Shown in pieces: positions 48,001-51,000 of a DNA stretch of 64,000 nt. The stretch comes from Escherichia coli (GTDB taxonomy: Bacteria > Pseudomonadota > Gammaproteobacteria > Enterobacterales > Enterobacteriaceae). How positions within the stretch are numbered: the stretch's first letter is position 1; every line of letters begins with the position of its first letter. The DNA is taken from the NCBI RefSeq assembly GCF_003991155.1, contig NZ_CP031293.1. The stretch is one strand, 5' to 3'. The position numbers are program-made.

Positions 48001-51000
48001 CAATACGTTGCGTTAAAAACGGCTGTTCAGTCTCTGATGCCACGGGGTATTGCAACAATCATCCGGTGATGGACGGGAGAAATATCGACTCTTCCGTTAG
48101 TTTTTACAGACTGATAAAGTTTTGCCAGCTGAATCTTTATACGGAATGCTCTTCAGTATGCATATACGAATTGACTATCTGGCGGATAAAAACTGCTTTA
48201 CAGAACTGAATGAATCTCCACGCCTTCGCCGGCAGTGGCAGGATGTTCTGGAGGAGTGCCGGCAGACAGAGGCCGGGCCAGAAGAACGGCTGCGTATTGC
48301 TCTGCTGAATGTGGATTACGTCACCAGTTTTGAACTGCCTTTTCGCTTGTTGCTTACTCGTACACCACAACTGATTGCCGCGCTGCGTGAAGAATGGGAC
48401 ATCAGCCAGAAAAATGTGGTGTTCAACGATAAACGCTTTGGCTGCGTGTACAACCTGAAGGCCAGCCTTTCGGGTGGGCCGGATACATTCCGGTATCATC
48501 TGTCTCACCGTATTCGGCGGGTGGTTGCGAATGAAAACACATCATCGCCATACCAACTGATTGCCCGGGAAGTGAAAGCGCCCCGTCAACGGCTGAAGTA
48601 TGCGCTGGAGACAGGATTGCAGGTGAGCGCACTGGACGGCCTGTTCTGGTTCGGCAGCCAGCGCATTGCGGCAGATATCCTGAGGCTGAGAAAGTACGGG
48701 ATGCGGATTGCGACGGCTTCTGTGGACGTGTATGACAACATAACCGGAACAACTCGTCATATCCCTGTATATTACTCCTGACGCAAAATAGTCTGTGGGG
48801 GCCGGAGCATGACCGGTAACCGGAACAGGGTTTTGCCCTCGTCACAGCCAAAAATACGTCCTTTATCACATTTCTTCGATTTTTCCTGATATTTTACCGG
48901 GTTACTGTTCAAAAATGCTTCTCTTCTGATGTAAATTTCTTTACTGACACTTTTTGACATGAATTTACACTGGCATCACACAGGCCAGAATACGGGGAGA
49001 ACATGCAGCACCGGCAGAAAAACATTCTGACGAAAACGTCCCTTTTATCCCGTGCGTTGTCTGTCCCCTGTTGTGATATGTTCCGGCGCGGCTCTCCGTG
49101 GATATGCTATCTCTCCCTCTCCGTTTTTTCTGGTTGTTTCATCCCCGCATTTTCGTCTCCGGCAGCCATGCTGTCTCCGGGTGACCGCAGTGCAATTCAG
49201 CAGCAACAGCAGCAGTTGCTGGATGAAAACCAGCGTCAGCGTGATGCGCTGGAGCGCAGTGCGCCGCTGACCATCACGCCGTCTCCGGAAACGTCTGCCG
49301 GTACTGAAGGTCCCTGCTTTACGGTGTCAAGCATTGTTGTCAGTGGGGCCACCCGACTGACGTCTGCAGAAACCGACAGACTGGTGGCACCGTGGGTGAA
49401 TCAGTGTCTGAATATCACGGGGCTGACCGCGGTCACGGATGCCGTGACGGACGGCTATATACGCCGGGGATATATCACCAGCCGGGCCTTTCTGACAGAG
49501 CAGGACCTTTCAGGGGGCGTACTGCACATAACGGTCATGGAAGGCAGGCTGCAGCAAATCCGGGCGGAAGGCGCTGACCTTCCTGCCCGCACCCTGAAGA
49601 TGGTTTTCCCGGGAATGGAGGGGAAGGTTCTGAACCTGCGGGATATTGAGCAGGGGATGGAGCAGATTAATCGTCTGCGTACGGAGCCGGTACAGATTGA
49701 AATATCGCCCGGTGACCGTGAGGGATGGTCGGTGGTGACACTGACGGCATTGCCGGAATGGCCTGTCACAGGGAGCGTGGGCATCGACAACAGCGGGCAG
49801 AAGAATACCGGTACGGGGCAGTTAAATGGTGTCCTTTCCTTTAATAATCCTCTGGGGCTGGCTGACAACTGGTTTGTCAGCGGGGGACGGAGCAGTGACT
49901 TTTCGGTGTCACATGATGCGAGGAATTTTGCCGCCGGTGTCAGTCTGCCGTATGGCTATACCCTGGTGGATTACACGTATTCATGGAGTGACTACCTCAG
50001 CACCATTGATAACCGGGGCTGGCGGTGGCGTTCCACGGGAGACCTGCAGACTCACCGGCTGGGACTGTCGCATGTCCTGTTCCGTAACGGGGACATGAAG
50101 ACAGCACTGACCGGAGGTCTGCAGCACCGCATTATTCACAATTATCTGGATGATGTTCTGCTTCAGGGCAGCAGCCGTAAACTCACTTCATTTTCTGTCG
50201 GGCTGAATCACACACACAAGTTTCTGGGTGGTGTCGGAACACTGAATCCGGTATTCACACGGGGGATGCCCTGGTTCGGCGCAGAAAGCGACCACGGGAA
50301 AAGGGGAGACCTGCCCGTAAATCAGTTCCGGAAATGGTCGGTGAGTGCCAGTTTTCAGCGCCCCGTCACGGACAGGGTGTGGTGGCTGACCAGCGCTTAT
50401 GCCCAGTGGTCACCGGACCGTCTTCATGGTGTGGAACAACTGAGCCTCGGGGGTGAGAGTTCAGTGCGTGGCTTTAAGGAGCAGTATATCTCCGGTAATA
50501 ACGGCGGTTATCTGCGGAATGAGCTGTCCTGGTCTCTGTTCTCCCTGCCATATGTGGGGACAGTCCGTGCAGTGACTGCACTGGACGGCGGCTGGCTGCA
50601 CTCTGACAGAGATGACCCGTACTCGTCCGGCACGCTGTGGGGTGCTGCTGCCGGGCTCAGCACCACCAGTGGTCATGTTTCCGGTTCGTTCACTGCCGGA
50701 CTGCCTCTGGTTTACCCGGACTGGCTTGCCCCTGACCATCTCACGGTTTACTGGCGCGTTGCCGTCGCGTTTTAAGGGATTATTACCATGCATCAGCCTC
50801 CCGTTCGCTTCACTTACCGCCTGCTGAGTTACCTTATCAGTACGATTATCGCCGGGCAGCCGTTGTTACCGGCTGTGGGGGCCGTCATCACCCCACAAAA
50901 CGGGGCTGGAATGGATAAAGCGGCAAATGGTGTGCCGGTCGTGAACATTGCCACGCCGAACGGGGCCGGGATTTCGCATAACCGGTTTACGGATTACAAC

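What the first reader, a model, noticed from the sequence alone, without database searches (positions are those of the whole stretch)
48122..48781. Uncharacterised 219-aa protein immediately upstream of cdiB
The ORF sits in the position where a regulator of the cdi locus might be expected. Its C-terminal region looks like it could be a DNA-binding fold, but I cannot assign it.
Basis: inference. Interest (0 to 1): 0.3.

Follow-up and report, generated by a model that had tools for sequence, protein, structure and literature searches.

The report
Island-backbone DNA-binding gene beside cdiB
The ORF is a real, conserved gene for a small protein with two winged-helix DNA-binding domains, but it belongs to the conserved backbone of a mobile genomic island and lies next to the cdi toxin genes because they occupy an exchangeable cargo slot, so it is probably not their dedicated regulator.

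Summary
The ORF is real and sits 221 bp upstream of cdiB. Its true start is most likely the ATG at 48158 (207 aa), not the TTG at 48122. It matches NCBIfam "ECs1377 family" (function unknown) and is under purifying selection (dN/dS 0.05–0.26).

A confident AlphaFold model (pLDDT 92.6) shows two winged-helix domains.

Homology to other islands covers the ORF and its upstream region and stops at the stop codon. The gene is therefore the last backbone gene before a cargo slot.

- Relatives occur in about 2,500 of 5,426 E. coli genomes and on IncI1 plasmids, mostly without cdi.
- About 75% of E. coli cdiB loci follow an ECs1377 gene, through two different junctions and two alleles only 85% identical.
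- CdiB stays 90–97% identical with or without it.
- Across 80 other species no neighbour is conserved.
- CDI-like or type VI secretion loci follow the gene in about 10 loci, always downstream and co-oriented.

A dedicated cdi regulator is not supported. A looser role at this "weapons slot" is not excluded. Interest is low to moderate.

The parts
47800..48066 (+). Decayed remnant of the backbone gene that normally precedes ECs1377 (PGAP: 'UCP030791 family putative phage-derived protein', pseudogene). It marks the left edge of the roughly 1-kb backbone block in this window.
   Evidence: tblastn with the intact EDL933 169-aa neighbour: 67% identity over 89 aa at 47800-48066. PGAP pseudogene at window 47788-47916. 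DNA homology to the EDL933 island begins at about 47790.
48092..48120 (+). The gene's own promoter: -35 TTCCGT (48092-48097), 17-nt spacer, TG (48112-13), -10 TAAAGT (48115-48120). Function as a promoter is inferred, not shown.
   Evidence: Cross-genus alignment of upstream regions. The motif is present at a fixed offset (-58 to -86) in 29 of 78 species-level loci, against about 0.3 expected from its background rate. The generic scan missed it because the -35 is weak.
48158..48781 (+). ECs1377-family gene, 207 aa plus stop.
   Evidence: NCBIfam NF052300 E=1.9e-95. PGAP CDS WP_001313589.1. Homologue N-termini align at this ATG. dN/dS 0.05-0.26. AF2 pLDDT 92.6.
48278..48454 (+). Winged-helix domain 1 (residues 41-99: three helices plus a beta-hairpin wing). 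It contains the most conserved motif of the family, LNVDYVTSFELPFRLLLTRxPQLI.
   Evidence: AF2 secondary structure. Invariant columns L64 L65 P70 Q71 I73. N-half vs C-half profile comparison E=3e-5 over 51 columns.
48581..48775 (+). Winged-helix domain 2 (residues 142-206), HTH_39-like.
48782..48834 (.). Junction or spacer between the backbone block and the cdi cassette. It may be a remnant of the 77-aa backbone gene that follows ECs1377 elsewhere.
   Evidence: Homology to cdi-less islands ends at the stop codon. Homology to class 2 cdi loci starts at about 48835. Local similarity of 48800-48826 to the 77-aa gene is reached by 6 of 500 shuffles, which is weak.
48835..49002 (+). cdi-associated leader with two overlapping sigma-70-like promoter candidates (48944-48971 and 48964-48991). 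It belongs to the cdi cassette, not to the ORF.
   Evidence: Shared with class 2 loci from about 48835 and with class 3 loci (no ECs1377) from about 48924-48930. Promoter scan.
49003..50775 (+). cdiB (ShlB/FhaC/HecB-family transporter), the first gene of the cargo.
   Evidence: 90-97% identical to E. coli CdiB in all upstream contexts.
50788..60654 (+). cdiA (3,288 aa; annotated as a contact-dependent inhibition effector tRNA nuclease).
60668..60988 (+). cdiI-like immunity gene (106 aa).
36136..37788 (+). The rest of the same backbone module (inovirus-Gp2/YfjJ-like gene and two zinc-ribbon genes). Here it is separated from the ECs1377 block by about 10 kb of inserted sugar-utilisation cargo.
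   Evidence: In other islands these genes lie directly before the UCP030791-like or 56-aa gene and ECs1377.

Best explanation
The ORF (true start 48158, 207 aa) encodes a stand-alone DNA-binding protein built from two tandem HTH_39-like winged-helix domains. It is transcribed from its own conserved extended -10 promoter. It belongs to a narrow, Enterobacterales-restricted family (NCBIfam ECs1377 family) carried by mobile elements. These are the conserved backbone of CP4-like integrative islands (Hha, Gp2/YfjJ-like, two zinc-ribbon genes, a UCP030791-like gene, ECs1377, a 77-aa ORF, DUF4222) and IncI1-type conjugative plasmids. In these islands the gene lies at the right-hand end of the backbone, directly before a slot that holds interchangeable cargo. 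In this window the slot holds cdiBAI. In other genomes it holds a Sci-1-type type VI secretion cluster or unrelated genes. The adjacency to cdiB is therefore a mosaic junction, not evidence of dedicated control. How it works is inferred. The two recognition helices of one polypeptide would contact adjacent DNA sites as a pseudo-dimer, making it a transcription factor or other DNA-binding factor of the mobile element. Its targets are unknown, and any effect on cdiBAI would be incidental or one of several. Shown: gene reality, family, fold, backbone membership, junction position, independent mobility of the cdi cassette. Inferred: DNA binding itself, promoter activity, the regulatory role.
Against: About 75% of E. 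coli cdiB loci do follow an ECs1377 gene. CdiB-like genes follow it in Citrobacter, Cedecea and Serratia too. All 10 TPS or T6SS hits in the 80 loci are downstream and co-oriented, none upstream, which is more order than a purely incidental neighbour would predict. In Kosakonia, Citrobacter and Serratia oryzae the gene sits beside T6SS without the rest of the island backbone. No DNA-binding site, target or phenotype is known. The complete-genome collection is clonally biased, so the counts are not independent events.
Confidence: 0.6

Rival explanations
1. It is a local regulator (activator, anti-silencer or repressor) of whichever antagonism locus occupies the downstream slot: cdiBAI here, a Sci-1-type T6SS elsewhere.
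For: The gene is upstream and co-oriented in every case: 10 of 10 TPS or T6SS hits are downstream, 0 upstream. About 94% of E. coli genomes with this tssB type (197 of 210) have the ECs1377 block in front. TssB and ECs1377 diverge in parallel across genera, 73/65% against 70/64%. TPS loci with only 31-59% CdiB identity also follow it. Chromosomal E. coli cdi loci are reported as tightly regulated with no regulator named (PMC8190604).
Against: At least 85% of species-level loci have neither TPS nor T6SS within 10 kb. The gene persists where the T6SS is absent. IncI1 plasmid copies have no such neighbour. cdiB is found behind unrelated genes with 93-96% identical CdiB. No motif is shared between its own promoter and the cdiB or tssB leaders. 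Sci-1 control is accounted for by Fur and Dam in the published work (PMC13262931).
Confidence: 0.2
2. It is a DNA-transaction protein of the mobile element, using two winged helices as iteron-binding initiators do: replication-initiator-like, partition, or a recombination accessory that marks the cargo-exchange junction.
For: The tandem winged-helix architecture is shared in outline with RepE-type initiators, which appear among weak full-length Foldseek alignments. The gene is carried by conjugative plasmids and islands. It sits exactly at a recurrent recombination junction.
Confidence: 0.1
3. It is a functionless relic stranded between two cargo insertions, together with the pseudogene to its left.
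For: Its left neighbour is a pseudogene. The usual downstream partners, the 77-aa ORF and DUF4222, are missing here. The block is only about 1 kb and is isolated from the rest of the backbone by 10 kb.
Against: The reading frame is intact, and the locus is 100% identical across at least 19 of the listed genomes. dN/dS is about 0.25 against other island alleles. The promoter is intact.
Confidence: 0.05

Closest known systems
NCBIfam NF052300 'ECs1377 family protein' (named after a gene of the E. coli O157:H7 Sakai SpLE1 island)
   Same: Full-length match, 317.7 bits against a cutoff of 190. RefSeq already labels the identical protein this way.
   Different: Nothing differs; it is a member. The family has a name only: no function and no publications.
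Pfam PF14090 HTH_39 (small stand-alone winged-helix proteins of phages and Bacteroides, for example BVU3908, PDB 2l01)
   Different: This protein has two such modules fused, plus an N-terminal strand-helix element. The window protein itself scores below Pfam's gathering threshold (17.9 vs 21.3 bits).
RovC, the activator encoded directly upstream of Yersinia pseudotuberculosis T6SS4 (PMC7535981)
   Same: Positional logic only: a small unusual DNA-binding protein encoded just upstream of, and co-oriented with, a secretion-weapon cluster.
Rep_3-type plasmid initiators (RepE, pi, RepA): two winged-helix domains in one chain
   Same: Tandem winged-helix domains in a roughly 200-250-aa mobile-element protein.
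MarR/ArsR-type winged-helix transcription regulators
   Different: Those act as homodimers of one winged helix with a dimerisation helix bundle. This is a single chain with two winged helices, and no ligand-binding region is evident.

Membership tests
NCBIfam NF052300 ECs1377 family | Whole-protein score above the curated cutoff, with end-to-end coverage of the model | tested here: met
   317.7 bits vs 190; model positions 1-190 of 190.
Pfam PF14090 HTH_39 | Score at or above the gathering threshold (21.3 bits) | tested here: inconclusive
   The window protein scores 17.7-17.9 bits (E about 0.003), below the threshold. However, 17 of 19 aligned family members match, best E=3.1e-7.
Pfam PF14090 HTH_39 | Winged helix-turn-helix fold (three helices plus a beta-hairpin) | tested here: met
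   Present in front of about 590 of 787 E. coli cdiB loci, through two junction types, and in Citrobacter, Cedecea and Serratia. Absent from class 3 chromosomal and plasmid cdi loci.
   3,582 places in 2,527 E. coli genomes, most without cdi. 540 plasmids. At least 85% of 80 species-level loci have no TPS or T6SS within 10 kb.
   The cdi-adjacent alleles are 85% identical to each other, and class 2 is 92% identical to non-cdi alleles, while CdiB is 94% identical between the two classes and 93-96% to loci lacking the gene.
   Only a negative hint: no motif is shared between its own promoter and the cdiB or tssB leaders. EMSA, ChIP and reporter assays are needed.
Rep_3-like two-winged-helix replication initiators | Global fold match, and iterons beside the gene | tested here: not met
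RovC-type T6SS activators | Sequence or fold similarity to RovC | tested here: not met
   No PDB sequence hits at E up to 10 with the single sequence, and only chance hits with the profile. Not among the listed structural hits.
Anti-phage defence proteins (PADLOC) | Match to any defence-system model | tested here: not met
   0 families at E up to 1.

The most novel reading that the evidence does not exclude
ECs1377-family proteins are the conserved 'gatekeeper' DNA-binding factor at the 5' edge of an exchangeable weapons slot in Enterobacterales mobile DNA. The same two-winged-helix protein would control, for example by counter-silencing or repression, whichever interbacterial antagonism locus is inserted downstream: a Sci-1-type T6SS in E. 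coli, Kosakonia, Citrobacter and Serratia, or CDI/two-partner secretion loci in E. coli, Citrobacter, Cedecea and Serratia. That would supply the missing regulator of the normally silent chromosomal cdi loci.
Probability: 0.15. Interest if true: 0.6.

Novelty: new member of a known kind. Interest (0 to 1): 0.3.

Why it matters
As it stands, this is a catalogued but unstudied mobile-element gene for a winged-helix DNA-binding protein, and its position next to cdiB is explained by island mosaicism. That is a useful negative: gene position alone is not evidence of regulation in mosaic islands. Three things are worth keeping. First, the protein is a tandem fusion of two phage-type HTH_39 modules with no solved full-length counterpart. 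Second, it marks a sharply defined junction after which E. coli islands carry interchangeable cargo (T6SS, CDI or other genes). Third, CDI and T6SS loci always lie downstream of it and co-oriented in several genera. Regulators of chromosomal E. coli cdi loci are unknown (PMC8190604). A single deletion and reporter experiment in Nissle 1917 would settle whether this gene is one of them.

Tried and rejected
- PADLOC: no defence-family match.
- PDB sequence search with the protein and with the family profile: nothing meaningful.
- Foldseek against the PDB: nothing below E=0.2. The weak RepE alignments were rejected as non-significant.
- AFDB50 fold search: the library was unavailable.
- The search for related loci with the 19-sequence alignment failed because the alignment was too divergent. 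It was repeated with 11 closer sequences.
- Marker-probe tblastn of the 80 loci left most neighbourhoods unexplained. All-vs-all ORF clustering then showed no conserved neighbour.
- The first promoter regex used the wrong spacer and found nothing. It was corrected.
- Search for a shared operator (TTCCGNT half-site) in the cdiB and tssB leaders: single matches only, rejected.
- Repeat search around the gene: only short two-copy repeats. The 11-mer TAACCGGAACA (48741 and 48817) is explained by a conserved coding motif plus a possible remnant of the 77-aa gene.
- Literature searches for ECs1377, the protein accession numbers, the NCBIfam model and cdiBAI regulators found nothing about this family.
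- RovC was considered as an analogue and rejected as a relative.
- The minus-strand ORFs overlapping the gene (48137-48508, 48423-48869) were treated as frame shadows, because the plus-strand frame carries the family conservation and the purifying selection.

Full report
**The observation.** The window contains an ORF at 48122..48781 on the plus strand, with a TTG start and 219 aa. Its stop codon lies 221 bp before the ATG of a 590-aa ShlB/FhaC-family gene at 49003. That gene is followed by a 3,288-aa cdiA and a 106-aa cdiI. The sequence is E. coli. The 47400-49100 stretch is 100% identical to many complete genomes, and 48400-49800 is identical in Nissle 1917.

RefSeq annotates the gene from the ATG at 48158 (207 aa, WP_001313589.1) as an "ECs1377 family protein". 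All homologues in other genera start at the equivalent position, M-x-x-R-I-D-Y. The 12 extra residues from the TTG overlap a conserved promoter element (see "Own promoter" below). I therefore take 48158 as the real start.

The gene is real. NCBIfam NF052300 matches end to end (E=1.9e-95, 317.7 bits against a cutoff of 190). A PHROG of unknown function matches (E=2e-54). Pairwise dN/dS against eight homologues is 0.05-0.26.

**The protein.** The family is small. Among 1.84 billion 50%-identity representatives only 111 match, and most of those are fragments. A scan of one genome per species found 98 loci. All are in Enterobacterales (Enterobacteriaceae, Yersiniaceae, Erwiniaceae) apart from two evidently contaminated assemblies.

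An AlphaFold2 model built on 19 diverse members is confident (pLDDT 92.6, pTM 0.85). It contains:
- an N-terminal strand and helix;
- a helix-helix-helix plus beta-hairpin unit at residues 41-99;
- a connecting strand and helix;
- a second such unit at residues 142-206.

The two halves are detectably homologous (profile-profile E=3e-5 over 51 columns). The C-terminal half matches Pfam HTH_39. The window protein scores below the gathering threshold, but 17 of 19 family members match, best E=3.1e-7.

DNA binding itself is inferred from the fold.

**Where the gene belongs.** Aligning the region with island copies from EDL933 and O104:H4 shows about 88% identity through the ORF. The homology continues about 350 bp upstream, into a decayed copy of the gene that normally precedes it (47800-48066). 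It ends at the stop codon.

In other E. coli islands the gene order is: Hha, an inovirus-Gp2/YfjJ-like gene, two zinc-ribbon genes, a small or UCP030791-like gene, ECs1377, a 77-aa ORF, and DUF4222 on the opposite strand. Variable DNA follows. The window holds the Gp2 and zinc-ribbon part at 36136-37788. That part is separated from the ECs1377 block by about 10 kb of inserted sugar-utilisation genes.

Relatives of the ORF occur at 3,582 places in 2,527 of 5,426 complete E. coli genomes, mostly at 80-90% identity. They also occur in 540 plasmid records, 497 of them conjugative and typified by IncI1 plasmids, where the gene sits beside a thermonuclease gene.

**Own promoter.** Upstream regions from different genera, with unrelated left flanks, share TTCCGN, a 17-nt spacer, and TAAAGT preceded by TG. 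This composite motif occurs at a fixed offset in 29 of 78 loci, against about 0.3 expected from its background frequency. In the window it lies at 48092-48120. The gene is thus a self-contained transcription unit. Promoter activity is inferred.

**The co-occurrence test.** There are three classes of cdiB neighbourhood in E. coli.

| Class | Arrangement | Genomes |
|---|---|---|
| 1 (the window) | ECs1377, then cdiB | about 190-197 |
| 2 | ECs1377, 77-aa ORF, then cdiB | up to 393 |
| 3 | cdiB behind a dGTPase gene, a HIRAN-domain pair, or a small HTH gene on an IncFII plasmid | the remainder |

This cdiB is found in 787 genomes. Roughly three quarters of E. coli cdiB loci therefore follow an ECs1377 gene, but only about one in six ECs1377 copies precedes cdi.

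The class 1 and class 2 alleles are only 85% identical to each other, and class 2 is 92% identical to non-cdi alleles. CdiB, by contrast, is 90-97% identical among all classes. Sequence shared among cdi loci begins at about 48835 (class 2) or about 48925-48930 (class 3). That shared segment includes both promoter-like hexamer pairs at 48944-48991. The cdi cassette, with its own leader, has therefore joined different backbones at different junctions.

**Beyond E. coli.** Clustering all ORFs within 10 kb of the gene in 80 species-level loci found no neighbour shared by more than 24 of 78 loci. The commonest neighbour looks like a LysR-type regulator gene, found at scattered positions. Two patterns stand out.

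- *T6SS neighbours.* A type VI secretion cluster starting with tssB follows the gene in several taxa: Kosakonia radicincitans and K. sacchari, several Citrobacter, Serratia oryzae, a different T6SS type in Yokenella, and E. coli O104:H4.
  - In E. coli, 197 genomes have the ECs1377, 77-aa ORF, DUF4222, tssB arrangement, and this tssB type occurs in only 210 genomes.
  - About 1,800 more genomes keep the block up to about 60 bp before the tssB start and then diverge.
  - TssB and ECs1377 diverge in parallel between genera.
  - Yet related Kosakonia and Citrobacter species keep the gene at the same site without the T6SS.
- *CdiB-like neighbours.* CdiB- and CdiA-like genes follow the gene in four further lineages.
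  - Citrobacter sp. 18056: same island backbone, CdiB 59% identical.
  - Cedecea.
  - Serratia sp. DD3: after a DUF2913 gene, CdiB 31% identical.
  - Serratia sp. Ag1: more distantly placed.

All ten TPS or T6SS hits are downstream and co-oriented, and none is upstream.

**Interpretation.** The best-supported reading is that the gene is the last backbone gene before a cargo slot, and that cdiBAI is one of several cargoes found there. This explains five things:
- the sharp homology break at the stop codon;
- the two junction types;
- the discordant divergence of the gene and cdiB;
- the many copies with no cdi;
- the plasmid copies.

The polarity and recurrence of weapon loci downstream are partly expected from the backbone-then-cargo layout. 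They also appear in chromosomal copies that lack the backbone. I therefore keep a broader regulatory role as a live rival (0.2) and as the novel case (0.15). The evidence against it:
- at least 85% of loci have no such neighbour;
- no DNA motif is shared between the gene's promoter and the cdiB or tssB leaders;
- published control of the EAEC Sci-1 cluster is by Fur and Dam (PMC13262931).

From memory, the O104:H4 tssB leader with its GATC sites resembles that sci1 promoter. I did not test this.

A replication-initiator-like or recombination role (0.1) rests only on the tandem winged-helix outline and the junction position, and the fold comparison does not support it. A dead relic (0.05) is contradicted by purifying selection and the intact promoter.

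**Known versus new.** The protein is already in RefSeq under a family name that carries no function. No paper in the searchable library discusses it. Its kind, a mobile-element winged-helix DNA-binding protein, is familiar, and the tandem HTH_39 architecture is a modest variation. The literature notes that chromosomal E. coli cdi loci are mostly silent in the laboratory, with no regulator named (PMC8190604). Interest is 0.3.

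Noticed in passing
window 38563-47403: About 9-10 kb of sugar-utilisation cargo is inserted inside the island backbone, between the zinc-ribbon genes and the UCP030791-like remnant. 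It comprises an ACT-domain pseudogene, a DeoR regulator, ribokinase, a fucP-like permease, an aldose epimerase, a transposase fragment, a Ula-like PTS IIC/IIB/IIA set and a LacI regulator.
   Followed up: partly
L003 10198-10640 (E. coli O104:H4) and about 1,800 other E. coli genomes: The conserved block after DUF4222 extends to about 60 bp before the tssB start in about 1,800 genomes that lack tssB. The leader of the lost T6SS is retained in front of unrelated cargo (a HlyC-like gene, a GIY-YIG gene, a NERD-UvrD helicase).
   Followed up: partly
L008 6006-6245 (IncFII plasmid pS19_141-a): A different small (79-aa) HTH-domain gene lies about 600 bp upstream of a plasmid-borne cdiB. It is unrelated to ECs1377.
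   Followed up: no
L006 5438-6670; L007 1065-6551: cdi loci without ECs1377 sit directly beside defence-like genes: a dGTPase-family gene in one, and a KAP P-loop NTPase plus a HIRAN-domain pair in the other.
   Followed up: no
window 48741-48751 and 48817-48827: The exact 11-mer TAACCGGAACA is repeated 76 bp apart, once in the 3' end of the ORF and once in the spacer. The spacer (48800-48826) weakly resembles part of the 77-aa backbone gene (6 of 500 shuffles), which hints that class 1 arose by deletion of that gene.
   Followed up: partly
L075 (Macrococcus carouselicus, 422-bp contig); L098 ('Chryseobacterium sp. 18061'): Hits in non-enterobacterial assemblies look like contamination. One is a 422-bp low-coverage contig 93% identical to the E. 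coli gene. The other is a contig nearly identical to Citrobacter sp. 18056 from the same study (L095).
   Followed up: no
L070, L072, L095, L096, L098: A DUF2913 protein (about 205 aa) is a recurrent immediate neighbour of the ECs1377 gene in the loci that also carry TPS or T6SS genes, on either side of it.
   Followed up: partly
window 61082-61999: Downstream of cdiI lie transposase and integrase fragments and a 'surface-adhesin E family' ORF. The matching RefSeq record shows orphan VENN-motif cdiA-CT modules further on, beyond the window.
   Followed up: no
H148-H149 (plasmids) and H151 (phage record): Distant family members (36-47% identity) occur on Vibrio parahaemolyticus and Erwinia tracheiphila plasmids and in one Erwinia phage record. 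This extends the family to other mobile elements.
   Followed up: no
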